Shown here piece after piece: positions 9,171 through 32,000 of a stretch of 32,000 bases of DNA. The position numbers and the translations under genes are program-made. Under the pieces are notes generated by a model that saw only the letters and a program-made list of their open reading frames with translations, was not told the DNA's origin and did not search any database. The first letter of the stretch is position 1. Each line of letters begins with the position of its first letter. Source of the DNA: Candidatus Vampirococcus lugosii (lineage in GTDB: Bacteria > Patescibacteriota > Gracilibacteria > Absconditabacterales > Absconditicoccaceae); the NCBI RefSeq assembly GCF_018420025.1, contig NZ_JAEDAM010000001.1, positions 1 to 32,000 of the forward strand, given 5' to 3'.

Positions 9171-9172
9171 TT

Positions 9173-10239: not shown

Positions 10240-10264
10240 TTCTTACAGATTTTCTATTAAAAAA

Positions 10265-10696: not shown

Positions 10697-10767
10697 TTTT
10701 GATACTAAAACATATAAAAATTAAATAAAAAATATAATTTTATCAAAATACATTACCCTACTGTAAT

Positions 10768-11610: not shown

Positions 11611-11639
11611 AATTTAATAATATATTACATATAAAATAT

Positions 11640-12404: not shown

Positions 12405-12415
12405 AAACAAAATTT

Positions 12416-13009: not shown

Positions 13010-13029
13010 AAAAAAACATTATTTTAATA

Positions 13030-14637: not shown

Positions 14638-14789
14638 CAAAAAAATATTAATTAATTAAAATTTAAACAGTTTACTTTATAAAGATTATTTTAATAATAT
14701 CAATATTTAATAAACTAATCTTATGTGTAAACAATGCTACTATTTCTTACAAAGATTTCACAAAATAAAAGTTGTTTAATTAAAATTAA

Positions 14790-16883
14790 TTATTTATATA
14801 TTCAATTTTCAATATCTTCTATAAATTTATGATAAAGTTTAGGAGTTATTATTTCTTTTTCATAAAGACTATTTATTACATTTTCTTCTATTCTTAATAA
14901 AGTTTTTTCAGACAATTTAGTTTCCAAACTCATAATAGTAGTCTTATATTCATTTATAAGTTTTTTATTCTTTTTATCGGATATTTGTAATAAATCTTTA
15001 TAAAGCTCTATTATATTATCAAAATATTTTTTATTAAATTTAAAATCAGTATTTTTTAATTCATTTAGTTGATTTATAGTATCTTTAATTACAATAACTC
15101 TAGCTCTATTTCTAATATAACTATTAATAGGAGAATTTTTATCAAAAGATTTTTCAACTAAATTTTCAAATATATCTTTTTTATCAGTATAATAATCTTT
15201 ATTTCAACTAAATTGTTTTAATCAGTTTTCTAATCTAGTTTTTTGTCTTTGAATTTTTCATAATAATATTCTATAATTATTTTCATCAATCTCATTAGAT
15301 AAAAATAGTTTTTTTAATGACTGTTTTTCTATTCATAAAGCATGTAATGAAAGAGCTTTTGTTATTAATTTATATCAATCTTTTTCCGTTTTTAATAAAT
15401 TTTGCATTCATTCAATAGCAGAATTAAATTTTTTTTGATATTTTATATTTAATTCTTTGTACTCATCTTCTAACAAATATCAAGCTTGATAATTTTGTTC
15501 TAATTTATTAAAAACCTTCAATAAAGCAAGTATTATTCATTCGTAATATTCAAATTTTTCTAATGAATGTATTTCATTAATTTTTAATTTTTTCATTAAT
15601 GGTACTATTGTAAGAGATTTTATTATTAAAGAAAATATTACAGATGAAACAACTAATACTGTCAAAAAATCTTTGATACTGTATTCATATCACCATCATG
15701 ATAATGTAAGCCCCTCTGGTATTATTAAAACCATCATTAATCATAATGCTCATCTTAAACTTCACCAAGCAAGTAAATGTTGCCAACTTATAGGTATTAT
15801 ACTAGATTTATCTATTTTTCATAAAAAGAAAAGTGGAATATAAACACTTAATCATCTAGATATTATTACTATAATTATAGTAATAGCAATAATAGGAATA
15901 AATTCTAAAAAATTTATATCAATATTAACTAAAATTAATCACATAAGTATAAAAACTAAACTATTTACTAACCAAGCAGAATATTCCCATAATTTATCCA
16001 TATGTTCTTCTATTTTTGGACTAATTTTGTGTCTACCATAATTTCAAGCTATAACTCATGCTATAGCTGTACAAACTATTCAAGAAATATCTATAATTGT
16101 AAAATGTGTTATAAATTCTGCCGTTAAAAATGCAATATGTGCAAGTGCTATAGTTAAAGTCATTTCAACTTCTTCTACATTTTTTATTTTTCAAATTATA
16201 TAAGAAAATAAATATCAAATTAATCCTCATAATATAATTCATCAAAACATCATAGATAAAAAAGATATTGATCAGTTTATAAGATGAGTATTAAGTTCAA
16301 ATGAATTTCATATTGATATTTCCCGCAATATACTTACAACAATCAGAAATAATGCTAATGATGTTGCATCATTAAACAAACTTTCTCATTCAAATATTAA
16401 TGACAATTTCCTAGGAGCTCATGATGATTTAAAAAGTGCTAATACTGCTACCGGATCTATTGATGAGATTATTGCACCAAAAAGTATAGTTACTCACAAA
16501 TGAACTTGCATTCATATAAAATTTAATATATAATACAAACTATAAGCAATAGTAAATGTTGATATTAATAATCAAACAAATGCTAAAGTAAATATTGTAG
16601 TTCAATTTTTAAATAAATCTTTATAATTTATATTATAAGCTGATTCAAAAACTAAAATTGGTAAAAATACAAAAAACAATATCTCCGGTGTTAATTGAAA
16701 ACTTGTTATTCGTGAAAATACAGGAAAATAACTTAATGGAACTAATATAAGTCATATAATAAAAAGTAATACAGTATATGGAAAATTAATTTTTTTTGAA
16801 AATAGAAATGCAAATGAAGCAATTATCAATAAAGAAAAAAAAGACAAACTCATGATAATAAAATTTGCCATACTGTCTTCCAT
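14790..16883 (-). CDS. Na+/H+ antiporter (CPA1/NhaP-type) with a long cytoplasmic C-terminal domain
   Basis: ATG at 16883 (alternative ATG at 16871) to TAA 14792-14790, checked codon by codon. Multi-TM N-terminal half with FGAIISSIDPVAVLALFKSSGAPRKLSLIFEGESLFNDATSLALF. The roughly 290-aa charged C-terminal region is unrecognised. Confidence 0.8.
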
Positions 16884-17123
16884 TTTAAATTTTATAATTT
16901 TATTAAATTAAAATAAATCAAGTACATTATATAATCAATTAAATATAAAAATCAATTAAATATTTTATTATACTCTATTCTCTTATCTATTTATAATCTA
17001 TTTAAATAAAATATACAACAATGAAAAAAACAAATATAGAAAATAAAAATAAAATTGATTGAAAAAAAATAATATTTATTTATAAGTAATTTTTAAATTT
17101 AAATTAATAATTAATTTCAAAAT

Positions 17124-17993
17124 ATGTATTATTTATTGGATGGATCTTGATATTTATTTAGATCATATTATGCATTACCCGATATGAAAAATTCTAAATG
17201 AGAAGATATATGAGCAATATATTGATTTTTTAGAATGATTTTAAAACTTTTACAAGATAATCCTGAAAAATTTGTAATAGCATGGGATATGGGTTCAAAA
17301 ACTAAAAGACATGAAAAATTTCCTAAATATAAAGCTAATAGACCAAAAATTCCAAATGAATTTAAAAATCAAATATGAGTAATTAAATCTATAATAAAAG
17401 AATTAAATATTCCTTTTTTTTGATTAGAGTGATATGAAGCTGATGATGTTATAAACACTATTGCTCAAAAATATAATTGAAATATAAAAATTATAAGTTC
17501 TGATAAAGATTTAAAACAATTATTAAATGATAAAATTATATTTTTTGATCCTGTTAAACAAATTATAGAAAATAATATTGATTTTGAAAAAAATATGTGA
17601 TTTCCTCCTATTAATATAATAGATTATTTAGCATTATTATGAGATACATCTGACAATATTCCTTGAGTAAAATGAATATGAAAAAAAACTGCATCTGAAT
17701 TAATACAAAAATATTATTGTATAGAAAATATATATATTAATATAAATGAAATTAAAGAATCAATATCAAAAAAATTAATTGAATGAAAAGACTCTGCTTT
17801 TGAAAGCAAAAGTTTAATAGAACTTATGATAATCCCAAATATACCAGATGTTAATGAATTATGAAAAATAAATATTGATTTTGATAAACTTAAAAATATT
17901 TTGATACAAGAATATAATTTTAAATCTATGGAAAAAATTATTGATAATTTGAAATTATCTTATAAATTCTGAACACAAACAAGTTTATTTTAA
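17124..17993 (+). CDS. Stand-alone 5'-3' exonuclease (Pol I N-terminal / FEN family)
   Basis: ATG 17124 to TAA 17991-17993. Motifs LLDGSGYLFRSYYA, KYKANRP, LEGYEADDVI, SSDKDLKQL and the H3TH motif LLGDTSDNIPGVKGIGKKTA. Confidence 0.88.
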
Positions 17994-18010
17994 AATATTT
18001 AATACAAAAA

Positions 18011-18037
18011 ATATCAAGAGAATAAATCTCTTGATAT
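18011..18037. terminator. Hairpin between convergent genes (likely bidirectional intrinsic terminator)
   Basis: atatcaagag / aataaat / ctcttgatat forms a perfect 10-bp stem with a 7-nt loop flanked by A/T runs. It lies between the stop of the exonuclease gene (17993) and the stop of the VWA gene (18057). Confidence 0.6.
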
Positions 18038-18056
18038 TAAAATAATTAAAATATTT

Positions 18057-19751
18057 TTATTTTTCCAAATTTCGTTTATTTCTATCTGGATTATAATCTT
18101 GTTTTACTTGTTCTCAATTGTTTATTAATTTTATTAACTTATCTATAGTCTTAATTTCTTTTTCAAAAACTTTCTTATCATCTCATTGAAATATTTCTTC
18201 TTTTAACTTTAATTTTTCTTTTATATTTTCCAATATAGAAATATCTCTTTCTTGAATAGATTCTTTTAATGCATCAGTATATTTTACTAGATTTACTCAT
18301 TTTATCATACTTGTATTAGCTGGTTTATTATCAATTTTTATTTCTTGAGATGTTTCCACTTCTTTACCAGTATATTCTTTATAACTTACTTGTATATTAA
18401 TATTTTCTTGTATTTGTTCTTTTAATTTCAAAAGAATTATAGATCATCTATGTCATTCAGTTTTGGGAGGAGTAGGAAATAATGTATTAATAGACATTAA
18501 TTCATTTTTATGATTATCTAATCAATAAACTTTTTCAATATTATCTTCATTATCTATATTCATTTTCAAATTAAATATCATAGGAAAAAAGTTATAATCA
18601 AATTCATCTACAATTCTCTGAGAAAATTCCCAAGCATCAGATATATAAAAATAATTATTTCATTCAAATTTTCATATTTTTTGTACAAATTGTTGTTGAA
18701 AATCTACTGCTACTCAAAAGAAAGAAAAATAAATATTATCTTCAGATGCATCTTTTACCATATTAGCTAATCATCAAGCTGAATAATCTCACATATTTGG
18801 CATAGCATCAGTAATAAAAAGAACTCTATTTTGATATCAACTTTTCATATCATCATCAAATAAAGATAATCATTTTTTCATTCATGATTCCATATTAGTA
18901 CCACCTCAATCTCTTACACTTTTTAAATGTTTTTTCAAAGAAGATTTATCTATATTTTCTACTTTTATAAGTTCATGAGCAATATATGCAGAATCATCAT
19001 ATAAAACAATTCATATTCTATCATCTTCTCTTAATTTGTCCAACATTTTTGACATAGCCTGCATAGCAAATTCCATTCTAGATTGTTTACTAATCTCAGT
19101 ATAATCATCTATAAATATTTGTTTATCTTCTTGAGAAATACATTTTTTTCATGGTGCAAAATATAATTCATTTTGAGTATCACATAAATCACTTTCATAA
19201 ATATAATCTTGAGTATTTTCATAATAATATTGTGATAAAGCTCATCACATACTTCAACTTTTATCTATTACCAAAACAAAATTAGTAGGAGGTCTTTGAA
19301 AATCTTCATCTTTTATATTAGATCATAAAGATATTTGTATCCAGTTTTCATTGTCTACTTGTCAATAATCAACTAAAGGACAAAACATTGTTTCACATTC
19401 TCAACTTGGCTGTTGAAAATGATAATCAGAAAATATACCATTATAAGTTATAGTTTCAAGACTTGGTATATGTCATTTTTCAATATTATCTCTAAAAAGC
19501 ATCATATCTTGATCAGCTCATACTTGAAATCAAATATTTTCTTGTAATGTATTAGTATCATATAAAGCTCATGGTGAACTAGGATTAATTCAAGAATTAT
19601 TACTAAATCATTGTCTATTATAAGTAGATTTAGAAACTTCTTCTTGATATTTCCAATGATCACTTTTTTCAGTAATACTAATTTTATCAATACATCAAGT
19701 CATAAAAATAAATGATAATATTATTGTAAACCATAAAATTGTTTTTGTCAT
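18057..19751 (-). CDS. Lipoprotein with a von Willebrand factor type A (VWA) domain (YfbK/BatA-like)
   Basis: ATG at 19751 to TAA 18059-18057, checked codon by codon. The signal peptide ends in the lipobox FMTGC, whose Gly is TGA. The N-terminal segment is IPSLETITYNGIFSDYHFQQP. MIDAS motif VLVIDKSGSMGG, plus GGTN and VLFITDAMPN. The tail is coiled-coil-like. Confidence 0.8.
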
Positions 19752-19849
19752 TATATTTGTATTTTAATATTTAAATGTAATATATCTTACGGAAGTTTTT
19801 TTATTTTATTACAAAAAATAATTTTTAATACAAAATAACTTACAAAAAA

Positions 19850-20485
19850 CTATAAAATATCTATAATCCTATCAAATACTTCTTCTTGAGTTCAAGAAGC
19901 ATCAATAATAAATAAATTTCACATATTTTGAAAAGTATCAATAACAGGCTTTGTTTCTTCTTTATATAATCTTACTCTTTTTTTAATAGCATCTGGATAA
20001 TCATCCTCTCTTTTTATTAAAGAATCAGATCAACAATATGTACAAGATTTTAATTTTCAAGAAATATTTGAAAGAGTTGCTCAACAATTAGAGCAAATCA
20101 ATCTAGATGAAAGTCTTTCAATAGCTTTATCTTCAGATAAATCTAAATATACTGCTTTATAAGATATATTTTTTTTTGAAGTTAAATCTATAAACTGTTT
20201 CATTTGATTTATTTTTCTAGGATAACCATCAATTAATATATTATCATTATCTGATAATGTAGTCAAAAAAGCATTAAACAAACTAGAAATAAATTCATCA
20301 TTAATTAAATTTCAAGAATCAATTATTTCTTTTACATAATCTCAAAGACAATTTGGTTTTGATTTAATAGCTCTAAGTATATTACCAGCTTCAAAATATT
20401 TATAATTAGAAAATTTATTTAATAACATTTTTGCTTGAGTTCATTTTCAAGCTCACTGTACTCAAAATAATACAATATTATTCAT
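19850..20485 (-). CDS. adk: Adenylate kinase (zinc-LID type)
   Basis: ATG at 20485 to TAG 19852-19850. In the P-loop LFGVQGAGKGTQA, all four Gly (codons 8, 11, 13, 15) are TGA. Also LIDGYPR and the LID CSNCG...CTYCGS. Confidence 0.92.
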
Positions 20486-20558
20486 CTAATAATTTTATTA
20501 AAAATAAAAAAAGACAAACAACACAATTAAATATTGTACTGATCGTCTATGACAAATT

Positions 20559-20981
20559 TTATCTCTTTGTCCATTGAGGTGATTTTCTAGCTTTTTTCAA
20601 ACCAAATTTTTTCCTTTCTTTTTCTCTTGAATCTCTTTTCAACAAACCAAAAGGTTTAAGTTGTAATCTATATTCAGAATTGAAAGAAACAAGTGCTCTT
20701 GAAATGGCAAGCTTAATAGCATCAGCTTGTCATCTAAGACCTCATCAAGAAACTTTAATATCAAGATCAAATCTATCAACAATACCAGAACCTATAGTAT
20801 AAAAAGAATGTAATGCAGATTCTATTAAATAATCATGTCATCCAAAATATTCTTTAATAGAAACTTTATCTCATCACTTATTTATCATAATATTTCAATT
20901 ACCACCTTGAAACAATTTTACTTGAGCAGTAGATTGTTTTCTTCTTCAAAGTCAGTACTCATATTTTTTTTCTTTTATCAT
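20559..20981 (-). CDS. rpsI: 30S ribosomal protein S9
   Basis: ATG at 20981 to TAA 20561-20559. Motifs [36 protein letters not shown] and C-terminal [12 protein letters not shown]. Confidence 0.95.
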
Positions 20982-21436
20982 TAATCAATTTTTTCAGGAT
21001 TTAAATAATCATATTTATTTGAATCTCAAGCAAATATTTTAAGTCTTTTCATTTTTCTATCTCTTAATTTATTTTTTGATAACATTCATCTCACACAATA
21101 CCAAATAACATTTTCTGGCTTTTTTTCCAATAATTCACTAAGAGACATAGCTCTAACATTTCATTTATATCAAGAATACCTATAATATTGTTTTTGATCT
21201 AATTTTTTTCAAGTAACTTTTATCTTACTAGCATTTTTAACTACAACAAAATCTCAACAATCCCAAAAATCACAATTATATTCTTTATATTTTCAAGATA
21301 ATCTATTAGCTATTAATGTAGAAACTTTTCATAAAGTTTTTCATTCCACATCAATTTCAAACCATTTTCTATTTTTCTCAGACCATTCTTTCTTAACAAG
21401 AACAGTTTTGTTTAAATTATTATTTGTAAATTCCAT
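20981..21436 (-). CDS. rplM: 50S ribosomal protein L13
   Basis: ATG at 21436 to TAA 20983-20981, overlapping the rpsI ATG by 1 nt (TAATG). Motifs KWFEIDVEGKTLGKVSTLIANRL, GDFVVVKNA, YYRYSGY and MLSKNKL. Confidence 0.93.
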
Positions 21437-21465
21437 ATATTATTTATTATATTCTAAAAAGAAAT

Positions 21466-21852
21466 TTATACTAATTTTACTAAAACTTCTTCTGCACTAT
21501 CTCACTTTCTATATCATAACTTATATGTAGAAACAAAACCAAACTTTTGTCAAGAATCTACATATTTAGGAAGTATTTCATTAATCATTTTTTTTCATTC
21601 TTCATTTCAAAGAATAGTAGATTTAACATAAGATATTGACAATCTTTTTGCATCAGCTTCATCATATCTTGATGTAAGCCCAACAAGATGAGACAAAAAC
21701 TTATCCGCTTCACTTTTCAAAATTTTAGCTTTTTTTGATGTAGTTTTTATCTGTCAATTTTTAATAAGACTAGTCAATAAATTTCTAATACGTAAATCAA
21801 ATTTTTGAGCTCAAGGATTTAAATCCTTAAGTTTATTATATTTATGTCTCAT
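21466..21852 (-). CDS. rplQ: 50S ribosomal protein L17
   Basis: ATG at 21852 to TAA 21468-21466. MRHKYNKLKDLN..RIRNLLTSLIKNGQIKTTSKKAKILKSEADKF. Confidence 0.88.
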
Positions 21853-21889
21853 TCTTTTTAAATATATTATAAGAATTAAATATTTAAGT

Positions 21890-22888
21890 TTATCAAGCAA
21901 GAGATTTTCAAATATCGTTCAATGAAACAATAATTTCATCAACTGCTTTTCTTCAAACTCACTTCATAGTCAACAATTCTGATCTTCTTTTTTTCTCTAA
22001 ATCTTCTACATACAGAATATTATTTTTAATAAGAGCATTTCTAGTTCTTTCACTAAGTGGAATTACATCAATAGGTTTTACTTTAACATTATCTTGATCA
22101 GAGGATTTATTAATTATATTATCCTTTATATCTCAATATTCTGTCAATAAAGATTTATCAATATAAGCTTCGTCAAAAACAAATAAATTTGAATAAGAAG
22201 ACAAAACTTCTCAAACAAAAGAAAGAATTTGTTTAGGAGTAATTTTATTAGAGATAGTTTTAATATCTATATTTAGTTGATCTTTACTAGATCAAGTAAA
22301 ATCATCAATATGTTCATCTATATCATATTTAACATATTCAACTAACTTAAAATCATTATCTATAAGCAAAATTCATATATCATTAGAATCTAATGTAGAT
22401 TCCCTTTTTTTCAAAAAATCTATACTATAATATGAATATCATTTTTCTATTCTATATTCAACTATCAATTCAATAGATGGATCAGTAATTTCAAACAAAT
22501 ATTCATGTTCATTCAAAATATCTATACCAGAAGGTAGTCTTAATGACGAAGCATCATATTTTCAAACTCAAGAAAATCTATGAAGAACCCAGTTAATTTT
22601 TTCATGATTTATATCAAGATTAAAACGAAGTTTCTTAAAATTTAATATAACATCTAATGCAGATTCTTTAACACCATCTATAGTATCATATTCATGAGGA
22701 ACTCATTTTATTTTTAATCAAGTTATTGCTCATCAAGAATTATAACCCAAGATAGCTCTCCTAATAGCATTTCAAAAAGTATGTCAAAATCATCTTGGCA
22801 AATATTTCACACAAAAGATCGTATTAGTATCAGATACTTCATCTATAACTATTTTAGGTTTTCCTATATAATTTTGGATATCTAACAT
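21890..22888 (-). CDS. rpoA: DNA-directed RNA polymerase subunit alpha
   Basis: ATG at 22888 to TAA 21892-21890. Motifs LPRGFGHTFGNAIRRAIL, ITGLKIKGVPHEYDTIDGVKES and the C-terminal-domain motif LSERTRNALIKNNILYVEDL..LLTMKGVGRKAVDEI. It ends ..LAG with a sense TGA directly before TAA. Confidence 0.93.
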
Positions 22889-22927
22889 AATAATTTAATT
22901 AAGAATTATTTAATAAATTTTTATTAA

Positions 22928-23551
22928 CTAAGCTCTAGCATAGAATTCAATAACTTTCAATATATCAGCAGGTAAAGAAATTTCTTCAGACCTAGGAAAA
23001 TCAATAACTTCTATTTCAAAATTGTCTTTCTTAACATTTAACCAAGTTGGTAACTTATAATTTCAAGAAGATAATGGAATAGAAGAATACAAAGGAGATG
23101 TTATTAATTTTGATTTCAAAGAAATTTTATCTCATACTTTAACAAAATAAGAAGAAGAATTATGTTTTTTTCAATTCAACAAAAAATGACCATGTCACAC
23201 CATTTGTCTAGCTTGCATTATAGTATTAGCAAGTCATGCCCTCAAAACAACACTATCCAACCTCCTTTCCAAAAATTGAATAGCTACCTCATCATGAGAA
23301 ACTCATTTATTTTTGGCATATTTTCAAGCTTCATCAATAACAGTTCTTTTAAATTGCTTTTCAGTCAAAAGATACATTCTTTTAATAACCTGTTTATTTC
23401 TAAGTAATTTACCATACTCAGAAAGTCTAGACATAGTAACTCAGTGTTGTCAAGGAGTTTTTTTTCTTTTTCTTACATCATATTTATTAACTCAAAAAAG
23501 ATTTATTCACTCTCTTCTACAAAGCTTAAATTTGGGTCAATTGTATTTCAT
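22928..23551 (-). CDS. rpsD: 30S ribosomal protein S4
   Basis: ATG at 23551 to TAG 22930-22928. Motifs [59 protein letters not shown] and PTWL. Confidence 0.94.
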
Positions 23552-23589
23552 AATAATAAAGTTATTAACTTAAATAAATTAAACAAAAA

Positions 23590-23985
23590 TTAATTTCTCT
23601 TAGGTCTTTTTCATTTACATCATCAAAATTGTATAGCAGTATTTTCTCTAATCAAAGATATATCTATACCTCACAAATCATTAATAGCTTTAAATACACC
23701 ATCTCTTCACATTCAAAGTCATTTCATATATATAGATATTTCTTTAAGTCAAAAAGAATCTCTAGCTTGTCTCATTATTCAACTTGTAAGCATTTCAGCA
23801 GCATAAGGAGTACTTTCTTTAGTTCACTTAAATCATGCCATTCATGTTCATCATCAAAGAACTTTATTTCATGATTCATCAGTTAAAGTAACTAAAGTAT
23901 TATTTGAACTAGTAGTAACAAATAACTTTCCAACAGGAAGTTTAATATTCTTTTTTTTCTTAGACTTTATATTTTGTCTTGCCAT
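23590..23985 (-). CDS. rpsK: 30S ribosomal protein S11
   Basis: ATG at 23985 to TAA 23592-23590. Motifs GKLFVTTSSNNTLVTLTD, GFKGTKESTPYAA, GLGMGRD and GGCKGKRPKR. Confidence 0.93.
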
Positions 23986-24006
23986 AATAAAAAATTAAAT
24001 TATAAA

Positions 24007-24381
24007 TTATTTCTTCAATACAGGTCTTACCCTACTTCTTCAAAGCAATTTCTTTGCAGTTTTAGCATGTTTAATAGTTTTTTGTCATCTAACTGGTAAT
24101 CACAAATTATGTCTCATACCTCTATAACATTTTATTTCTTTTAATCTTTTGATAAATCAAGTTTGTTCTCTCTTTAGATCACTTTCCAAAAGATAATTTG
24201 ATAATTCATCTGTTATCATTTTTTGTTCTTCGTCTGTTATATCTCTAACTTTTTTTTCAAAAGGAATTTCTAATTTAGTCAAAATTTCTTTAGATCTAGA
24301 GATTCATATTCAATAAACATGTGTTAATCAAACAAATATAACTTTATTATCTGGTATAACATTTCCTTGAAGTCTAAACAT
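24007..24381 (-). CDS. rpsM: 30S ribosomal protein S13
   Basis: ATG at 24381 to TAA 24009-24007. Motifs LTHVYGIGISRSKEIL, IKCYRGMRHNLGLPVRGQKT and KTAKK. Confidence 0.93.
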
Positions 24382-24414
24382 ATATCTAATATACTTAAAT
24401 TATAAATATCAAAA

Positions 24415-24528
24415 TTATCACTGTCTCTGCTTATGTTTTGAATTTGAACATATAACATAAGCTATTCACTTTCTTTTAACTATCTGACAACTAGAACACA
24501 TTTTTTTTACTGATGATCTTACTTTCAT
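24415..24528 (-). CDS. rpmJ: 50S ribosomal protein L36
   Basis: ATG at 24528 to TAA 24417-24415. [37 protein letters not shown]. Both Gly are TGA, including the conserved terminal Gly directly before TAA. Confidence 0.93.
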
Positions 24529-24535
24529 TTATATA

Positions 24536-24757
24536 TTATTTAAATCTATAAATTATACGTCACTTTGAAGGATCATACTCATTTAATTCAATTTGAACCT
24601 TATCACCTTCAATTATTTTTATATTAAATTTTTTCATCTTTCAAGATGAATAAGCAGTAACAAGCATATCCATACCAATAAGTTTAACTTGATAATTTCA
24701 TCATCACAACATTTTTTCAACTATTCATTCAACTACTATAGTATCATTATTTGTCAT
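24536..24757 (-). CDS. infA: Translation initiation factor IF-1
   Basis: ATG at 24757 to TAA 24538-24536. VEGIVEKMLGGGNYQVKL...[26 protein letters not shown]. Confidence 0.9.
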
Positions 24758-25073
24758 TATAATCAATATTATCTACTTTTAAAACTGATTGATTAGCCCT
24801 AAATCATTTTTTCCTAAAATATCTATTTTTATTATGAAACTTAACAACACTTATTTTATCTCATTTCTTATTTGAGATTAATTTCAAAGAAGCTTTTGCA
24901 GAATCAACATATGGTTTTCATAAAGAAAAAACATTTCAAGAATCATCAAAAACTGCCAATATTGAAGAAACAATTATAGTTTCTCACTCATCTACACCCA
25001 TAGAATCAACAACTATTTCATCTCATTCTTTAACAATATACTGATGTCACTTCAAATCTATTACTACATACAT
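24747..25073 (-). CDS. rplU: 50S ribosomal protein L21
   Basis: ATG at 25073 to TAA 24749-24747, overlapping the infA start by 11 nt. MYVVIDLKGHQYIVKEGDEIVV..GKPYVDSAKASLKLISNKKGDKISVVKFHNKNRYFRKKGFRANQSVLKV is collinear with E. coli L21. Confidence 0.88.
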
Positions 25074-25096
25074 TAAAATATTATAATATTATATAA

Positions 25097-25360
25097 TTAA
25101 ATTCTCTTTCAAAATTGTGCCAAAAGATTATATTTTTCTTTATTTTTTCTATAAGCATCTGAAACAATAGCCCTCATTCTTTTATATCTTCTAGCACTAG
25201 GGAATCTATATTCTACAAATTTCCTATACCATTTAGTTCAATAATGCTTTTGTTTTTTAGCTTTATCAAGTATATGAGAAGATCGCAATTCTTTTTTATA
25301 AAATGCAACCATTCTTTCATTAGTATTTAAATCTGCTGTTTTATACACAGTAAATCACAT
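25097..25360 (-). CDS. rpsU: Putative 30S ribosomal protein S21 (divergent, with an insertion)
   Basis: ATG at 25360 to TAA 25099-25097, 87 aa and basic. ERMVAFYKKELRSSHILDKAKKQKHY aligns by eye with the S21 core [26 protein letters not shown]. The FPSARRYKRMRAI tail also fits, as does the ribosomal operon context. Confidence 0.55.
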
Positions 25361-25392
25361 ATCTTATATTTAATATTAAATAAATAAAACTA

Positions 25393-25437
25393 AAGATAAA
25401 AGAAAAACTACACTTAATGCAATCAATCTTTTATCTT
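25393..25437. other. 11-bp inverted repeat between tRNA-Leu and the S21-like gene
   Basis: aagataaaaga (25393-25403) and tcttttatctt (25427-25437) are exact reverse complements with a 23-nt loop. The stem is nearly all A/U, so it is weak. The role (processing site, attenuator or leader) is unknown. Confidence 0.3.
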
Positions 25438-25458
25438 CAATTTAAAATAAAAGCGAAA

Positions 25459-25543
25459 TACCGGGAACCGGACTTGAACCGGTACTCTAAAATTTAGAAG
25501 CGGATTTTAAGTCCACCGCGTCTACCAATTCCGCCATCCCGGC
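25459..25543 (-). tRNA. tRNA-Leu (anticodon UAA), type II with long variable arm
   Basis: Hand fold: GCCGGGA / TGGCGGAATTGGTAGACGC / GTGGA-CTTAAAA-TCCGC / variable arm / ACCGG-TTCAAGT-CCGGT / TCCCGGT-A. Discriminator A73, G1:U72 wobble, no encoded CCA. Confidence 0.9.
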
Positions 25544-25563
25544 AAAAAGAACAAAATCCCAAA

Positions 25564-25911
25564 TTATTTAGAGATTTCTTCATTTATTTTATCAAAAACT
25601 TCAGGAAAAACAACTGCAATATTAGATAAAACTTTTCTATTCATAACCACATTATTAGTTTTCAACTGATTAATAAAGACACTATATTTAGAACCTCTAG
25701 ATCTAAGAGCTGAAGAAAGCCTATCTATCCATAATTGTCTAAACTGTCTTTTTTTCAATTTCCTTCATATATAAGCATTTTGTCATTGTTTTATTAAAGC
25801 CAACCTAACTTGTTTATAAACATTTTTTCTTCAAAGTCTAAATCATTTAGCTTGTTTCAAAAACTTTTTATGCCTTCTATGTCTAACAAATCAATTAGTA
25901 ACTCTTACCAT
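25564..25911 (-). CDS. rplT: 50S ribosomal protein L20
   Basis: ATG at 25911 to TAA 25566-25564. MVRVTNGFVRHRRHKKFLKQAKGFRLGRKNVY...RQLWIDRLSSALR...VMNRKVLSNIAV. Confidence 0.94.
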
Positions 25912-25915
25912 ACTA

Positions 25916-26113
25916 TTATAATTTATAAGGAATTAAATTTCTAACTTTCTTTTCTTCTTTATGAGATAATACTCTACCATAAGGATCCTTTTTAGGTGAA
26001 GAACCTTTATTTGTAAGCAAATGACTAACTCAAGCCTTTTTATGAATAAGTTTACCAGATTTAGTAACTTTAATTCTCTTAGCCATTGATTTATTAGTTT
26101 TAACTTTATACAT
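25916..26113 (-). CDS. rpmI: 50S ribosomal protein L35
   Basis: ATG at 26113 to TAA 25918-25916. MYKVKTNKSMAKRIKVTKSGKLIHKKAGVSHLLTNK. Confidence 0.88.
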
Positions 26114-26114
26114 T

Positions 26115-26660
26115 TTACTTAACTTTAGCAAATAAAATCATACTATATCCTCTTTTTTCTTTTTTAATTCATTGTCATTTACTTATATCAATAAGCAATG
26201 ACATTATATACTCTAATCTAGAATATAATTTATCTGCATAAATATTTTCTCTTCATTTAAGCTGACCAAGAAATTTTACAGTATGTCAAGACTCCAAAAA
26301 CTTTTTTGCTTGAGATATTTTCATTTCCAAATCATTATCTCAAATATTATAAGAAAACTTTATCTCTTTCATACATTTAGATTTTTGAGACTTCTTTTTT
26401 TCTCAATCTTCTTTCTTTTTTGAATACAAATATTTTCAAATTTCCATTATTTTAGCAGTAACAATTTTATCTTTTGGATCAAATCAAACCTGAATCAAAT
26501 CTTTCATCTCTTCTTCTGCCTTCAATAAAGCATCTCTTTTTGAAAAAATTCAAAGATTAACTCATTCCTCATCTATTAATAAAATTTTATCTCACCTAAT
26601 ATACTCATTAGTATACAATTTTTTATCATAATTTTTACTATTAGAAGAGCCAAAACCCAT
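26115..26660 (-). CDS. infC: Translation initiation factor IF-3
   Basis: ATG at 26660 to TAA 26117-26115, 1 nt before the rpmI start. Motifs IRGDKILLIDEEGVNLGI, EEEMKDLIQV, KEIKFSYNIGDNDLEMK and GHTVKF. Classic infC-rpmI-rplT order. Confidence 0.88.
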
Positions 26661-26693
26661 ACAAAAAATTTAAATTATAAATCGCCAAGACCA

Positions 26694-26768
26694 CATCCCT
26701 GGCGGGATTTGAACCCGCGATCTCTGGCATGAGAGGCCAACATCCTAAACCAACTAGACGACAGGGAC
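26694..26768 (-). tRNA. tRNA-Glu (anticodon CUC)
   Basis: GTCCCTG TC GTCTAGTTGGTTTAGGAT G TTGGC-CTCTCAT-GCCAG AGATC GCGGG-TTCAAAT-CCCGC CAGGGAT G. The Glu-type GTCCC...TCGTCTAG pattern is present. G1:U72 wobble, no CCA. Confidence 0.85.
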
Positions 26769-26776
26769 AAATAAAC

Positions 26777-26850
26777 TACACTTGGAAGGAATCGAACCTT
26801 CAACCTACGGCTTAGAAGGCCGTCGCTCTATCCGATTGAGCTACAAGTGC
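26777..26850 (-). tRNA. tRNA-Arg (anticodon UCU)
   Basis: GCACTTG TA GCTC AATCGGATA GAGC G ACGGC-CTTCTAA-GCCGT AGGTT GAAGG-TTCGATT-CCTTC CAAGTGT A. G1:U72 wobble, no CCA. Confidence 0.88.
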
Positions 26851-26872
26851 AAAACAAAAAATTAAAATAAAT

Positions 26873-26946
26873 TGGAGTCGAGGGGACTCGAACCCCTGAC
26901 CCCCTGCGTGCAAAGCAGATGCTCTAGCCAACTGAGCTACGACCCC
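26873..26946 (-). tRNA. tRNA-Ala (anticodon UGC)
   Basis: GGGGTCG TA GCTC AGTTGGCTA GAGC A TCTGC-TTTGCAC-GCAGG GGGTC AGGGG-TTCGAGT-CCCCT CGACTCC A. The G3:U70 alanine identity pair is present. No CCA. Confidence 0.92.
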
Positions 26947-26960
26947 AATAAATTTTAGAA

Positions 26961-27043
26961 TGGGCAGAGTAGGATTCGAACCTACGTAGCCGTGAGGCGG
27001 CGGATTTACAGTCCGCTGCATTTAACCACTCTGCCATCTGCCC
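26961..27043 (-). tRNA. tRNA-Tyr (anticodon GUA), type II
   Basis: GGGCAGA TG GCAGAGTGGTTAAATGC A GCGGA-CTGTAAA-TCCGC long variable arm GTAGG-TTCGAAT-CCTAC TCTGCCC A. No CCA. Confidence 0.9.
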
Positions 27044-27055
27044 AAATTTAAAAAA

Positions 27056-27295
27056 CTATTCAACATTAACATACACATTACTAGATTCAAAATCTAATAA
27101 ACCAAACATAATCATAAAACCAAAAATCATAACAACAAATCAAAATAATATTATAGCTTGTCTAGTTCATCAAAAATATCTATTTGCCCAATCAGAATTT
27201 CATAAAATTTTAGACAAATTACTTGAAAAATAAACTAAAGACATTCATAATAATAAAACAAAAACTCATGCAATAATATTTAACAAAATTGACAT
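27056..27295 (-). CDS. Small (79 aa) two-TM hypothetical membrane protein
   Basis: ATG at 27295 to TAG 27058-27056. MSILLNIIAGVFVLLLGMSLVYF...AIILFGFVVMIFGFMIMFGLL. No recognisable family. It is flanked by tRNA genes on both sides. Confidence 0.5.
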
Positions 27296-27331
27296 ATTTT
27301 TTTATATATTACACAAATAATATAATTACAA

Positions 27332-27405
27332 AGCGGGCAACGGGACTTGAACCCGTACAGGCAGAGCTGAATTCTGCCATGCTACACCAATTACATCATG
27401 CCCGC
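27332..27405 (-). tRNA. tRNA-Gly with anticodon UCA (decodes UGA)
   Basis: Hand fold (74 nt): GCGGGCA TG ATGT AATTGGTGTA GCAT G GCAGA-ATTCAGC-TCTGC CTGT ACGGG-TTCAAGT-CCCGT TGCCCGC T. The anticodon loop has U33, T34 C35 A36 and G37. The acceptor stem G1:C72, C2:G71, G3:C70 and discriminator U73 are bacterial tRNA-Gly identity elements (compare E. coli GCGGGAA...TTCCCGC-U). No CCA. Confidence 0.88.
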
Positions 27406-27529
27406 GACTAAATGTAATATACAATATAATCATTTATTTCAAAAAATCAAGCAAAAATGACTTTAATTTTTTAAAAAATACTTTTTTTGAAAAAAATATT
27501 TTATATATACTATATATTTTATATATATT

Positions 27530-28735
27530 TTATATATATTTTAAAAATTTACTTATAATATCATTGTATACATCCATTCATTTACTTTTTAAAAAAGTTC
27601 TTCAATCTTTTGTTTTCATAAAATTATTTATTTCAAGTTCTTTTTTTATATCTTGCCAATTCTCTACTAATACATCATCAAATTTTTCAAAATTTTGTAA
27701 GCCTTCTTTAGTTCTAAGTCACATAAAAAATTTATCTACTAATAAATCATTTTTTTTCATCTCAAATATGTTTTTGTAATCATAAAATTTATTTTCAAAA
27801 AAAAATTTCCAATTTTTAGTATTTTCAAATCTTACAGCCTTAATTTCAGTATTTAATTTTTTAAATATTTGATCTGCATAATCTCTATACAAAAAAGAAC
27901 TTGCTCACATACCTAATCATAAATATTGTCACATATTCCAATATATCATATTATGTAAACTTCTTTTTCAAGATATTTCAAAATTTGAAATTTCATATCT
28001 TTTATATCAAGAATTCATTAATATTTTTTTGAAATTATCAAATTCTTGATAAACTTTTTCATTATTTGAAGTATAATTACTATACATTACACTACCAGGA
28101 AACAATTCCAATGTATATATAGAAAAACTATCAGCAAAACCAGAAAAAATAAAATCACTCAAAAATTTCTTTTTATAATCAGGAAGCCAGTTTCAAAAAT
28201 CATCAATAGCACCAAAAGCTATAAAATCAAAATTAAAAACATTATTAACTTGTTTATAATCTGTTAAAGTTCTAATAAAAGAAATTAATGTATTATAATA
28301 ATAATTTCTATTGGTATACTTTAATACCTCATCATTCAAAGATTGAATACCAAAACTATATCTAATTCTAAAAAAATTAAAATAAGTTTTATTAAAAGAA
28401 TCTATAAAATCTAAAACTTCATCAAAAGGATCAGGATTTAATTCAAAATTTATTTCTTCACAATTAGATAAATCAAAATTTTCTAATAAATTATTTATTA
28501 TATTAAAAATATTTTCTTTACCTAATAAAAGTGGAGTTCATCAACCAAAATATATAGTTTTTATTTTTTCATTTGCAAATATTTTTGAATAATAATCTAT
28601 TTGATTTAATAAACTTTTATTATATTTTCATATAAAAGTTTTTTTTTCATCAATTTTATCTACAGGAGCAATAAAAAAATCACAATAAGAACATTTTTTT
28701 TTACAAAAAGGAATATGTATATATAAAGATAACAT
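27530..28735 (-). CDS. hemW: Radical SAM family heme chaperone HemW (HemN-like)
   Basis: ATG at 28735 to TAA 27532-27530. Motifs LYIHIPFCKKKCSYCDF, TIYFGGGTPLLL, FGIQSLNDEVLKYTNR, YEISNF, HNMIYWN and GLGMGASSF. Confidence 0.88.
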
Positions 28736-28776
28736 TCAAAATAATAAAAAATAAAATAATATTTTAACGAATAATT

Positions 28777-29757
28777 CTATAAATTCATTTTATAAATTCA
28801 TTTATTTGTATCAATTTCAATATTTCAACCAATAGGAATAGTTTGTATGGGATATATATGTCCAAACTGTGCATTCATAACAACAGGAATATCTAATCAA
28901 TCCACAAAATCATTAATAGTAGTTTCCAAATCTATATCATAATATTTTAAACATTCTTTATTTACTCTACCAAAAACAATTCAAGAAATTTTATTAAAAT
29001 TTTTTTGATTTTTAATATGCATTAATTGCCTCCTAATAATTCATATGTTAGATTCACTACATTCTTCCAAAAATAAAACTTTATTTTCAAAATCTGGAAT
29101 AAAATCAGTTCAAATCAAAAGACAAAAAGTAGAAATATTTCATCATACTATAATTCAATTAGATTTTCAATGTTTAATAATTTTCAATCAATCATCATTT
29201 ACTATTTGTTCTGGATAAGTTTCAATATTAGCAGTATAATCATAATAATATTTATGAAAATTTAATTCACTTGAATTTTGTTCCAATACAGTATTTTTAA
29301 AATAAAGAAAAGTTTCCAAACTTCAATAAGTAAAAGGTCATAAACTTCAAGGTGTAGGACCAGAAAAATTAGTTAATCAAGTTTTAGTAAATATTGCATT
29401 ATTTAATGCAGTAATATCAGAATATCAACAAATTATTTTTGGATTATTTAATAAAGCTTCCCAATCAATATATGGCAAAATTTCATTAGTAAATGCTCAT
29501 CCACCTATAGGCCAAATCATTTTAATATTTGAATCTTTAATAAAACTATTAAAATCTTCTACTCTTTTTGATGGATGAATTCATTGTATAGGAAGATAAA
29601 TATTTTTTCCAAAAATCATTTTATATCAAAGATGTTGTTCAAAAATTCTTTTTACAGTATCAAATTTTGTTGAAATAATTTTTTCTTGCTCTAAATTATC
29701 AGCAATAGAAACTATTCAAATTTTATCTCAAAAAGACAATTTTGGTAATTTTTTCAT
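28777..29757 (-). CDS. LD-carboxypeptidase (peptidase S66, LdcA/MccF-like)
   Basis: ATG at 29757 to TAG 28779-28777. Motifs GDKIGIVS, RVEDFNSFIKDSNIKMIWPIGGGA, the nucleophile motif CGYSDITALNNAI, GGNISTFCLLIGT, LFLEE and FGH. Confidence 0.85.
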
Positions 29758-29780
29758 TATTTAATTTATTTATATTAAAA

Positions 29781-32000
29781 TTATTTTAATTTAAATACTA
29801 TTATTTGAGAAGATTTTCAAATACTATCTTTAATTAATTTAATAACAACAGATTTATATTGTTCTTGATCAGTTAAATAAATATTATATATATTAACTAC
29901 TTGAAAAAGTATTTCTTTTTCGTCATCACTAAGATTAGTTATTTCATCTTCAAAAGATTTTCAAGGATTTTCTAACATATTTTTTAATATTTCTTTAATT
30001 CTATGAGTTTCTATATTTTTTCAGTATATAGAAACAACATCATCTATAAATTCAAAACTTTCTAACCTATTTGTAAATGCATTCAAAACTATATTATATA
30101 ATTGTTCAGAATTCCAATATCTCAAAGTAGCCAAACGAGCACGAAGTAATACAAGTTCATCATCTGTTAATTCTTGACCTATATATTTTTCCAATTCTTC
30201 TTGTGATAAAATAAATCAATATTTAGCACCTATATTATTGCTTGAAACAAATTCAATATATCAATCTTCAATTAATTTAGCAAGCATACTAATAGCTCAA
30301 TGTTCTTCTATTTTTCAATTTGAATCAAGTTTTGCAAAAAATCTATCAAATAAACTCATATTTCACTGCCCCATAACAACTGTTCAAATATTTGGATCAA
30401 TAGCTAAGTAATCCATTTTTTGATCTTTTAATCTAAGATATGAATTACAAGTATCATTATCTGAAAACATTTCCCAAAGCCAAGTAAGAAATTGATCATA
30501 TTTTATATATTTTTGATTATCAACAAAATATCTAGCATAAGTTCATGCAATATATACTCATTCTGATTTATCTCTATTATTTACTAAATTCAAAAATTTA
30601 TAATAATGTCAAAACTGTCTATCAAAAACATCATCAGATGTATAAGGCATAATTTTATTATTTTCAACTTTTCAAGATTCATTATATGTTTGTTCTTGTC
30701 AAATTCATTGTTTGTACCACATAAATGGTCAAGATCATCATTGTTCTTGAATTCTAATAAAATTTAACAAAAGCATAAAAAATCAATAAACCAAAAAGAA
30801 ATATATATAAATATTTAATAATTTATTTTTATCATTATACTCAATTTGTCATATTCTATAAAGAAAAGAAATAAATCATAATATAGTCCATAAAATAAGT
30901 CATAATCAATACCAAAGTATTCATCATCATATAAAAAACCATATAGTCCAAAGCAATAAAGTAACAAATAAAATAGATAACAAATATCTATCAAATTTAG
31001 CTATAGCATAAAGAATAGCAAAAATTAATGTAAAAAGAATAATAAGCCAAATATATCATATATCGGTATAATAACTACTTTCATTACTCAAAGACCAATT
31101 AAAAGTAATATTAAAAGGAACTAAATATTTATATGGAATATGAATATTATCTACACTTATATTTAATTCTTTTAATTCTTGAATTTCTGAAGAAAAATTT
31201 TTAATTATTTCCTCATTTGAAATATTTTCATAAAATCTATTATCATCATTAACTATACTATATAAAACATCATAAACTCTAGATCAAGAATTTACATTAT
31301 TATATAAATTTAATATTTTTTCATAAGTTAATTCATTAATATCATTAATAACAGGATAAGTATAATCTTCTCTCAATATAGAATTATCTTTATAAAAATC
31401 TTCTAATTCTTGAATTTCTCAAGAAAATGTATTAATAATGTCTTTATTTGAAATATTTTCAGAAAAATCATCAGAATTATATATATTAGATACTACATCA
31501 TAAACTTTAGAATTACTAGAAATATTATTATATAAATAAGATATTTTATCATAAGTAATATGATTTTTATCATATAAATTTGCACAAACTAAATTTGAAC
31601 TAGAATTAAATCACATACACTTATTTCAAGAAGGGAAAAATATTCACCACCAAGGATATTTAAATTTTCTCTGACCATATCAAATATATCTACCAACATC
31701 TTCTGCATAAGTATCACCTGGTGCTTTTGATATATTTTCATACAAAGAATCTTTATTATCTAAATTTGATAAACTACAAGAATTTATTCAATTATAAAGA
31801 TCTTCAGGATTATTAGTTGATGCAAACAATACTGGCTCAGTATTTCAAGATTTATTATTTTCTAAATCCTTTTCTAAATCAGTTGATGATTGTGATAAAA
31901 AAACTCTTTCAATAAATTTTACTGCTTCAAAATCATTTCATTTACTATAATCTACATAAAAAACATATGTTCATTTAAGAATTAACAATGTAAAAATAAA
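29781..32000 (-). CDS. Large multi-pass membrane protein, function unknown (partial; 5' end beyond window)
   Basis: Open with TGA=Gly from 32000 down to TAA 29783-29781 (739 codons seen). A soluble N/S-rich region with two repeated modules comes first. It is followed by a cluster of TM helices (IWLIILFTLIFAILYAI, LLSILFVTLLLWTIWFFIGGGILWYGLGLILWTILGFISFLY, IYIYFFLVYGFFMLLLNF) and a soluble C-terminal domain of about 330 aa. Confidence 0.6.
31170..31562 (-). repeat. Internal tandem duplication (period 231 nt / 77 codons) inside the large membrane protein gene
   Basis: ttcttgaatttct occurs at 31176 and 31407, and atttgaaatattttca recurs in both copies. Protein modules: ITYDKISYLYNNISSNSKVYDVVSNIYNSDDFSENISNKDIINTFSGEIQELEDF versus LTYEKILNLYNNVNSGSRVYDVLYSIVNDDNRFYENISNEEIIKNFSSEIQELKEL. 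Confidence 0.7.

What the first reader, a model, noticed from the sequence alone, without database searches (positions are those of the whole stretch)
27332..27405. Dedicated UGA-decoding tRNA: UCA anticodon on a glycine-identity body
The 74-nt gene folds into a canonical cloverleaf whose anticodon loop is A-U-UCA-G-C. The acceptor stem G1:C72/C2:G71/G3:C70 plus discriminator U73 are the bacterial GlyRS identity set, and C35 is retained. This is the physical decoder that explains the recoding seen in every gene of the window. It stands apart from the 4-tRNA cluster, separated by a 79-aa membrane-protein gene. It has its own upstream AT-rich region, with TTGATT/TATATT-like boxes on the minus strand at about 27450-27423.
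Basis: partly seen in the sequence, partly recalled or inferred. Interest (0 to 1): 0.8.

Follow-up and report, generated by a model that had tools for sequence, protein, structure and literature searches.

The report
Known UGA-to-glycine tRNA (code 25)
This is a real, functional tRNA that reads the usual stop codon UGA as glycine, but it is the already published decoder of the SR1/Gracilibacteria genetic code (table 25), in a genome (Candidatus Vampirococcus lugosii) whose paper already reports the recoding.

Summary
A 74-nt tRNA with anticodon UCA lies at 27332-27405 (-), with G1:C72, C2:G71, G3:C70, U73 and C35. Read as sense, UGA makes up 5.1% of codons, and no gene in the window ends in UGA. 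Of 166 in-frame UGA codons aligned to standard-code E. coli orthologues, 105 fall on Gly and 1 on Trp. This matches the rate for the window's ordinary GGN codons.

About 89 relatives in Absconditabacteria/SR1 and Gracilibacteria genomes carry an 85-99% identical tRNA. All stem pairs are kept and 7 of 21 show compensatory changes.

These are the roughly 290-nt gap containing a small membrane-protein gene, and the TTGATT/TATATT promoter boxes.

None of the core is new. The window is from Ca. Vampirococcus lugosii, whose 2021 paper states that UGA encodes glycine. The tRNA, its identity elements, its charging by GlyRS and the loss of RF2 were described for SR1 in 2013.

Minor additions:
- UGA is the majority glycine codon here (about 80%).
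- G37-C38 is invariant in the cellular family.
- All three testable CGA codons sit on conserved Trp columns.

The parts
27332..27405 (-). tRNA-Gly(UCA), 74 nt. Standard 7/4/5/5 cloverleaf with a 4-nt variable loop, discriminator U73 and no encoded CCA.
   Evidence: ARAGORN. Rfam RF00005 at 56 bits. Family covariation: 100% of cells paired, 7 of 21 pairs with double changes, 0 of 500 shuffles as high.
27368..27370 (-). Anticodon U34-C35-A36, within the loop A32-U33-UCA-G37-C38.
   Evidence: Rfam alignment. G37-C38 is invariant in 89 of 89 family tRNAs, while the 119 other A36 tRNAs in the same loci have A37.
27445..27450 (-). -35-like box TTGATT, part of the conserved CTTGATTTT motif.
   Evidence: Scan. 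TTGATTT occurs within 150 nt upstream in 80 of 88 loci, against 5.4% of background windows.
27423..27428 (-). -10-like box TATATT, 16 nt after the -35 box and 17 nt before the tRNA 5' end.
   Evidence: Scan. TTGATT-N16-18-TAnA[AT]N occurs upstream in 65 of 88 loci, against 0.7% of background windows.
27056..27295 (-). Conserved 79-aa small membrane-protein gene between tRNA(UCA) and tRNA-Tyr. It contains 6 UGA codons, two of them in the conserved LGGTRN motif.
   Evidence: Translation. The gap is conserved, median 291 nt in 77 loci. The protein alignment is conserved across the family. No Pfam match.
26693..27044 (-). Downstream tRNA cluster on the same strand: Tyr(GUA), Ala(UGC), Arg(UCU), Glu(CUC). 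Its synteny with the UCA tRNA is conserved.
   Evidence: ARAGORN. The same order, with occasional Tyr/Ala swaps, is seen in most of the roughly 89 family loci.
1..32000 (.). The decoded substrate: 34 ORFs with 491 in-frame UGA codons. UGA is 5.1% of codons and 82% of GGN+UGA. No ORF ends in UGA.
   Evidence: Gly identity of UGA.

Best explanation
The gene encodes the tRNA-Gly(UCA) of translation table 25, the code of Absconditabacteria/SR1 and Gracilibacteria. The host is Candidatus Vampirococcus lugosii.

**How it most likely works:**
1. It is transcribed from a sigma-70-type promoter (TTGATT-16-TATATT).
2. It is probably the first gene of a unit that continues into a small membrane-protein gene and the Tyr/Ala/Arg/Glu tRNAs.
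3. It is trimmed and CCA is added, because CCA is not encoded.
4. Glycyl-tRNA synthetase charges it with glycine through the acceptor-end identity set (G1:C72, C2:G71, G3:C70, U73) and C35.
5. Its UCA anticodon pairs with UGA, so UGA inserts glycine.
6. Termination uses only UAA and UAG, which requires that release factor 2 be absent.

In this very AT-rich genome (21.8% GC in the window), UGA has become the main glycine codon.

**Shown here:**
- The gene, its fold, and its conservation with covariation.
- UGA is sense and falls at glycine positions.
- No gene in the window ends in UGA.
- The promoter motif is conserved.

**Taken from the literature for relatives:** charging by GlyRS and loss of RF2.

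**Inferred for this organism:**
- Charging and absence of RF2.
- Co-transcription with the downstream genes.
- Base modifications.
- How UGG (Trp) is spared.
For: **Gene and fold:**

**UGA is sense:**
- ORF lengths.
- 491 TGA in 9631 codons, against 109 GGN and 57 TGG.
- Stops are 28 TAA and 5 TAG, with no TGA.

**UGA is Gly, tested against standard-code sequences:**
- E. coli orthologues of 15 proteins: 105 of 166 UGA positions align to G and 1 to W, on a G background of 7.6%.
- Controls: GGN aligns to G at 66% and TGG to W at 44%.
- Aquifex adenylate kinase: 9 of 11 positions are G.
- AAA-ATPase family: the four conserved UGA columns are G in 103-112 of 119 homologues.

**tRNA body:**
- Identity is 67% to E. 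coli glyT(UCC), 61% to glyU, 56% to glyV, 54% to trpT and 37% to selC.
- The acceptor stem is identical to glyT's.

**Family:**
- About 89 loci from SR1, Absconditabacteria and Gracilibacteria genomes carry an 85-99% identical tRNA.
- They include the published RAAC1_SR1_1 (L091) and oral taxon HOT-345 (L100).
- Covariation supports the fold.

**Source organism:** LysRS, AAA-ATPase and DUF212 proteins match Ca. Vampirococcus lugosii entries on a 58,480-bp contig.

**Literature:**
- PMC8080830: UGA encodes Gly in Vampirococcus.
- PMC8629427: same identity criteria.
- PMC3812714: SR1 genomes carry nearly identical tRNA-UCA genes.
- PMC4695839 and PMC13293708: GlyRS charging and RF2 loss, citing Campbell 2013.
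- PMC4032931: proteomics with 97 Gly-specific against 3 Trp-specific peptides in BD1-5.
Against: There is nothing substantive against it. The limits are:
- Charging, RF2 absence and expression were not and cannot be tested for this organism with the window alone.
- The genome's canonical tRNA-Gly, tRNA-Trp, GlyRS and prfB lie outside the window. The rest of the genome could not be retrieved.
- Conservation of positions 1-4 and 69-73 among the fetched relatives is circular, because my search pattern fixed them.
- About a third of UGA positions align to non-Gly residues in E. coli. This is the same fraction as for ordinary GGN codons, so it reflects divergence and not another meaning.
- C36, a glycine identity element in E. 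coli, is necessarily replaced by A36.
Confidence: 0.95

Rival explanations
1. It is a tRNA-Trp(UCA), as in Mycoplasma-type code 4, so that UGA encodes tryptophan.
For: The UCA anticodon is shared with code-4 decoders. Some database pipelines translate relatives' UGA as W: there are 7-11 W's in otherwise G columns.
Against: - Only 1 of 166 UGA positions aligns to E. coli Trp, against 105 to Gly.
- UGA at 5.1% of codons is about ten times a normal Trp content.
- TGG is retained and still aligns to Trp.
- The tRNA has U73 and G1:C72, not the bacterial Trp set of G73 and A/G1:U72 (criteria as in PMC8629427).
- Its identity to E. coli trpT (54%) is lower than to any Gly isoacceptor.
Confidence: 0.01
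2. It is a tRNA-Sec, as ARAGORN labels it, inserting selenocysteine at UGA.
For: ARAGORN prints 'tRNA-SeC' for any tca anticodon.
Against: - It is 74 nt, with a 7-bp acceptor stem, a 5-bp T stem and a 4-nt variable loop. E. coli selC is 95 nt with a long extra arm.
- Identity to selC is 37%.
- Rfam assigns the general tRNA model rather than tRNA-Sec within the same clan.
- 491 UGA codons spread over every gene, at Gly positions, cannot be SECIS-directed Sec.
Confidence: 0.005
3. It is a glyT-derived UGA suppressor giving partial read-through, in a genome or mobile element where UGA is still mainly a stop codon.
For: Gly-bodied tRNA(UCA) genes occur sporadically in standard-code MAGs. Examples are L050 Thalassotalea in the glyT slot, L084, L005, and L028, which has no in-frame TGA. 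They also occur on viral contigs.
Against: - In this window no ORF ends in TGA, and every gene, including ribosomal proteins, has in-frame TGA at conserved Gly sites.
- Gene content is chromosomal housekeeping: ribosomal proteins, RpoA, IF3, Adk and LysRS.
- The tRNA is a conserved, syntenic, vertically inherited family member.
Confidence: 0.01

Closest known systems
tRNA-Gly(UCA) of candidate division SR1 / Absconditabacteria and Gracilibacteria (NCBI translation table 25; Campbell et al. 2013, Rinke et al. 2013)
   Same: - Same anticodon, same identity set (G1:C72, C2:G71, G3:C70, U73) and same 74-nt body.
- 86.5% identical to the tRNAs of the published SR1 genomes RAAC1_SR1_1 (L091) and HOT-345 (L100).
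- 98.6% identical to L039.
- Same synteny and same lineage.
- It is a member of this family.
   Different: Only in degree.
- The host is at the AT-rich extreme (21.8% GC in the window).
- UGA supplies about 80% of glycine codons here, against 11-81% in relatives.
- It has A32, where most family members have C32 (7 of 89 loci share A32).
E. coli glyT, tRNA-Gly(UCC)
   Same: - Identical 7-bp acceptor stem and U73.
- 4-nt variable loop, a weak AU-rich D stem, and U34 and C35.
- Highest identity among the E. coli tRNAs compared, at 67%.
- Both lie next to a tRNA-Tyr(GUA) gene.
   Different: - A36 instead of C36.
- G37-C38 instead of A37-A38.
- A different D arm and anticodon stem.
- It reads UGA rather than GGA/GGG.
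tRNA-Trp(UCA) of Mycoplasma/Spiroplasma and insect endosymbionts (translation table 4)
   Same: It works in the same way. A UCA-anticodon tRNA captures UGA in an AT-rich, RF2-less bacterium.
   Different: - The amino-acid identity differs, Gly against Trp.
- In code 4, wobble reading of UGG is harmless. Here UGA and UGG have different meanings, so wobble must be avoided or out-competed (a point raised in PMC8629427).
Bacterial tRNA-Sec (selC)
   Same: UCA anticodon; reads UGA.
   Different: No Sec-type fold, no long variable arm, and 74 nt against 95 nt. Decoding is general rather than SECIS-dependent.

Membership tests
tRNA-Gly(UCA) of translation table 25 | Canonical cloverleaf tRNA with anticodon UCA | tested here: met
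   ARAGORN. Rfam RF00005 at 56 bits, full length. Covariation.
tRNA-Gly(UCA) of translation table 25 | Bacterial GlyRS identity set: G1:C72, C2:G71, G3:C70 and discriminator U73 (the criteria used in PMC8629427) | tested here: met
   Read directly from the sequence and the Rfam alignment. The acceptor stem is identical to that of E. coli glyT.
tRNA-Gly(UCA) of translation table 25 | In-frame UGA at conserved glycine positions of the host's proteins | tested here: met
   - 105 of 166 UGA positions align to G and 1 to W against E. coli.
- The rate equals that of the GGN control.
- Further support from PDB adenylate kinase and the AAA-ATPase family.
tRNA-Gly(UCA) of translation table 25 | UGA not used for termination | tested here: met
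   The 33 complete ORFs end in TAA (28) or TAG (5) and none in TGA. This covers the window only.
tRNA-Gly(UCA) of translation table 25 | Sequence homology to the tRNA(UCA) of published SR1/Gracilibacteria genomes, and host in that lineage | tested here: met
   - 85-99% identity to about 89 loci, including RAAC1_SR1_1 and HOT-345.
- The host is Ca. Vampirococcus lugosii.
tRNA-Gly(UCA) of translation table 25 | Release factor 2 (prfB) absent from the genome | not testable with these tools
   Only 32 kb is available, and the rest of the genome was not retrievable. RF2 loss is reported for SR1 (PMC4695839, citing Campbell 2013).
tRNA-Gly(UCA) of translation table 25 | Aminoacylation with glycine by GlyRS | not testable with these tools
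   Shown biochemically for an SR1 tRNA by Campbell 2013, as summarised in PMC13293708. Not done for this organism.
tRNA-Trp(UCA) of translation table 4 | Discriminator G73 with A/G1:U72; UGA at conserved Trp positions | tested here: not met
   U73 and G1:C72. Only 1 of 166 UGA positions aligns to W.
tRNA-Sec | 13-bp acceptor/T domain (8/5 in bacteria), long variable arm, about 90-100 nt | tested here: not met
   7/5 domain, 4-nt variable loop, 74 nt. 37% identity to E. coli selC.

The most novel reading that the evidence does not exclude
The invariant G37-C38 may be a specific adaptation of the cellular UGA-glycine decoder.

**What was observed:**
- G37-C38 is present in 89 of 89 cellular family tRNAs.
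- Every other A36 tRNA in the same loci has A37.
- The phage-borne Gly-type tRNA(UCA) (L126) and the one in the non-recoded locus L028 also have A37.

**What it might do:**
- It might prevent isopentenylation of A37.
- It might tune the anticodon loop so that U34 reads UGA but not the tryptophan codon UGG.

This would matter most where, as here, this single tRNA supplies about 80% of all glycine codons. The published accounts held here only note that the anticodon arm is 'divergent'. I found no analysis of these positions.
Probability: 0.2. Interest if true: 0.45.

Novelty: already known. Interest (0 to 1): 0.12.

Why it matters
For annotation, the finding matters only as a flag. This window must be translated with table 25, otherwise every gene is shattered. 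Scientifically it re-derives a result published in 2013 for the clade and in 2021 for this genome.

The extras measured here are incremental:
- **UGA share:** in the most AT-rich members, UGA supplies about three quarters or more of glycine codons (76-82% of GGN+UGA). The share tracks GC content (Spearman -0.66).
- **Anticodon loop:** the decoder has an invariant G37-C38 signature.
- **Operon head:** a conserved promoter and a conserved small membrane-protein gene.
- **Second recoding:** GenBank's table-25 translation of this genome probably still mistranslates CGA (and perhaps CGG) as Arg where Trp is meant. This agrees with a published clade-level prediction.

Tried and rejected
- **Circular homologue test.** The LysRS homologues are almost all from the same recoded lineages, so I did not use them to infer the meaning of UGA. 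I used E. coli K-12 regions instead.
- **E. coli blastn.** A search with the tRNA gave only one weak hit, E = 2, to a tRNA-Gly 3' half. I replaced it with an explicit alignment to annotated E. coli tRNAs.
- **Fixed-distance promoter scan.** It gave no peak across relatives, because the leader length varies from 16 to 72 nt. A distance-free motif count then gave a clear signal.
- **Source contig.** An exact-protein look-up found nothing on record. The genome's own tRNA-Gly(UCC/GCC), tRNA-Trp, GlyRS and prfB therefore could not be examined.
- **Campbell 2013.** PMC3619370 is not held in the library. Its content is cited only through papers that summarise it.
- **Representative search.** The search of protein representatives refuses recoded proteins.
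- **Small ORF.** It has no Pfam family, and a SecG guess was not supported.
- **CGA/CGG against E. coli.** Only one site aligned, so this was uninformative. Family alignments were used instead.
- **Tyr-Gly adjacency.** I considered and set aside the idea that adjacency to tRNA-Tyr, shared with E. coli tyrU-glyT, shows in-situ origin from glyT. The gene order differs and I could not test it.

Full report
**1. The observation**

ARAGORN reports six tRNAs on the minus strand. One is a 74-nt gene at 27332-27405 with anticodon tca. The label 'SeC' is only ARAGORN's name for that anticodon.

Rfam's general tRNA model matches it over its full length at 56 bits, E = 1e-9. Within the tRNA clan it is preferred over tRNA-Sec.

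Read from that alignment, the RNA is: GCGGGCA UG AUGU AAUUGGUGUA GCAU G GCAGA AUUCAGC UCUGC CUGU ACGGG UUCAAGU CCCGU UGCCCGC U.
- The acceptor pairs are G1:C72, C2:G71 and G3:C70, and the discriminator is U73.
- The anticodon loop is A32-U33-U34-C35-A36-G37-C38.
- The variable loop is 4 nt, and CCA is not encoded.

The MFE fold is -30.8 kcal/mol with z = -2.74. It recovers three arms but not the weak D stem.

**2. Is UGA really sense, and which amino acid?**

The window is 21.8% GC. Under the standard bacterial code there are ten stop-to-stop ORFs of at least 100 aa, the longest 184 aa. With TGA read through, a dense set of long genes appears.

Codon counts over 34 ORFs and 9631 codons:

| Codon(s) | Count | Share of codons |
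|---|---|---|
| TGA | 491 | 5.1% |
| GGN | 109 | 1.13% |
| TGG | 57 | 0.59% |

All 33 complete ORFs end in TAA (28) or TAG (5).

In the raw translations, X (the UGA positions) sits in textbook glycine positions. Examples are the P-loops of the PilB-like, Clp-like and adenylate kinase proteins, and the Ung motif.

Database homologues of these proteins come mostly from the same recoded lineages. I therefore tested against standard-code sequences:
- **E. coli K-12** (regions). 166 UGA positions in 15 proteins aligned to E. coli orthologues. 105 (63%) fall on Gly, 11 on Ala and 1 on Trp. The Gly background is 7.6%.
- **Controls.** The window's GGN codons align to Gly at 66% and TGG to Trp at 44%.
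- **Aquifex adenylate kinase (PDB).** 9 of 11 UGA positions are Gly.
- **AAA-ATPase family.** This family is dominated by standard-code bacteria. The four conserved UGA columns are Gly in 103-112 of 119 homologues.

UGA therefore behaves exactly like a glycine codon. It does not behave like Trp, and at 5% of codons it cannot be selenocysteine.

**3. The tRNA body**

I aligned the tRNA to annotated E. coli tRNAs. Identities are:

| E. coli tRNA | Identity |
|---|---|
| glyT (UCC) | 67% |
| glyU (CCC) | 61% |
| glyV (GCC) | 56% |
| trpT | 54% |
| selC | 37% |

It shares glyT's entire 7-bp acceptor stem, U73 and the 4-nt variable loop.

**4. Relatives**

I scanned one genome per GTDB species with a pattern that fixed only GCGG…U33-UCA…T-arm…CCGCU. 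It returned 110 loci.
- About 89 carry a 74-nt tRNA(UCA) that is 85-99% identical to this one.
- Their titles name SR1, Absconditabacteria, Gracilibacteria, 'Peribacteria' and Patescibacteria.
- They include the published RAAC1_SR1_1 and oral taxon HOT-345 genomes.
- All these loci are AT-rich and yield long ORFs only with TGA as sense.

Across 32 distinct sequences, every one of the 21 stem pairs stays Watson-Crick or G·U. Seven pairs show changes on both sides, and 0 of 500 shuffles reach the observed value.

One caution applies. Conservation of positions 1-4 and 69-73 in this set is circular, because the pattern fixed them.

**5.

- **The gap.** The distance to the next tRNA is conserved. 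The median is 291 nt in 77 loci, and it is 287 nt here.
- **The small gene.** The gap holds a conserved small membrane protein with an LGGTRN motif. In this genome the motif reads F-UGA-UGA-T-R-Q. It has no Pfam family.
- **The gene order.** UCA-(small ORF)-Tyr/Ala-Arg-Glu-…-Leu(UAA) is conserved.
- **The promoter.** The TTGATT-16-TATATT boxes are not significant within the window alone.
  - They are the local copy of a conserved CTTGATTTT…TATAxx motif.
  - The full pattern lies within 150 nt upstream in 65 of 88 loci, against 0.7% of background windows.
  - TTGATTT occurs in 80 of 88 loci, against 5.4% of background windows.
- **The transcription unit.** No terminator-like site separates the tRNA from the small ORF. 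The promoter may therefore serve the whole unit. This is an inference.

**6. Source and prior knowledge**

LysRS, the AAA-ATPase and the DUF212 protein of the window are identical, or 99% identical, to GenBank proteins of Candidatus Vampirococcus lugosii on a 58,480-bp contig.

What is already published:
- The genome paper states that UGA is reassigned to glycine and counts 38 tRNA genes (PMC8080830).
- Kantor et al. noted that SR1 genomes share nearly identical tRNA-UCA genes (PMC3812714).
- Reviews summarising Campbell et al. 2013 report three things (PMC4695839 and PMC13293708):
  - GlyRS charges the SR1 tRNA-Gly(UCA).
  - RF2 is lost.
  - The D and anticodon arms diverge from canonical tRNA-Gly while the identity elements are kept.
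- Hanke et al. gave proteomic support in BD1-5 (PMC4032931).
They also raise the UGA/UGG wobble issue (PMC8629427).

The finding is therefore correct but already known.

**7. What I can add**

- **UGA share.** The UGA share of glycine codons rises as GC falls across the family (Spearman -0.66, p = 1.5e-10). This window, at about 80%, is at the top of the range together with a few other low-GC loci. GGA is scarcer than GGT (23 against 75). This is consistent with GGA-to-UGA replacement, which is an inference.
- **G37-C38.** This pair is invariant in all 89 family tRNAs. All 119 other A36 tRNAs (Tyr, Leu, Cys, Phe) in the same loci have A37. Position 32 is C in 82 loci and A in 7, including this window's nearest relatives.

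Whether these loop features prevent A37 modification or limit wobble to UGG is speculation. It is the most novel reading left open.

**8. Verdict**

| Question | Answer |
|---|---|
| Observation | Confirmed |
| Interpretation | Supported |
| Novelty | Already known |
| Interest | Low |

The mechanism is as published for table 25. For this organism, the steps of charging, RF2 absence and UGG discrimination are inferred, not shown.

Noticed in passing
window 722-724 (-); window 10265-10696 (-), residues 37 and 114: A second recoding is likely, CGA to Trp.
- All three testable CGA codons lie on conserved tryptophan columns: W in 86 of 119, 26 of 43 and 28 of 43 homologues.
- GenBank's Vampirococcus and Absconditicoccus proteins show R at those positions.
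- The window has 8 CGA and 2 CGG codons, and no matching decoder tRNA.
- This agrees with the clade-level prediction in PMC8629427.
   Followed up: yes
L126:3965-4039 (viral contig IMGVR_UViG_3300020577_008220): This phage fragment gives long ORFs only with TGA as sense.
- Its UGA codons fall in CxxCxGxG and YopX 'MQFTGL' glycine positions.
- It carries its own Gly-type tRNA(UCA) with G1:C72, C2:G71, G3:C70, U73 and an encoded CCA.
- That tRNA has A37-A38 rather than the cellular G37-C38.
- A second viral contig, L124, has a glyT-like tRNA(UCA) with no recoding signal in the 1.4 kb held.
   Followed up: partly
L028:4485-4558 (JANQMV010000021.1, Ca. Gracilibacteria MAG PL25b_bin.48): This locus has a divergent Gly-type tRNA(UCA). 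It shares the unusual GGTGTAG D-loop but has A37, an encoded CCA and a different neighbourhood.
- About 2000 codons of real genes there, including IleRS and glutamine synthetase, contain no in-frame TGA, and none ends in TGA.
- It may be a lineage with the decoder present but the codon almost unused.
- The sample is too small to be sure.
   Followed up: partly
L050 (Thalassotalea MAG), L084 (Alphaproteobacteria MAG, 70% GC), L005 (Akkermansia MAG): These standard-code genomes have tRNA-Gly(UCC)-like genes that carry a UCA anticodon. In L050 the gene sits in the conserved Thr-Tyr-Gly-Thr (glyT) slot. They are either natural C36-to-A UGA-suppressor alleles or assembly/sequencing errors.
   Followed up: no
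window 27056-27295 (-): A 79-aa small membrane protein with a conserved LGGTRN motif always lies between tRNA-Gly(UCA) and the Tyr/Ala tRNAs in this clade. It has no Pfam family and its function is unknown.
   Followed up: partly
window 11640-12431 (-): The UvrB homologue is only the C-terminal part, about 255 aa, matching E. coli UvrB at 41% identity over 244 residues. No N-terminal part is adjacent. It may be a truncated gene or a remnant.
   Followed up: no
window 1-958 (-): The AAA-ATPase gene runs off the window start. GenBank lists it as 'partial' on the 58,480-bp contig, so the window appears to begin at or near a contig end.
   Followed up: no
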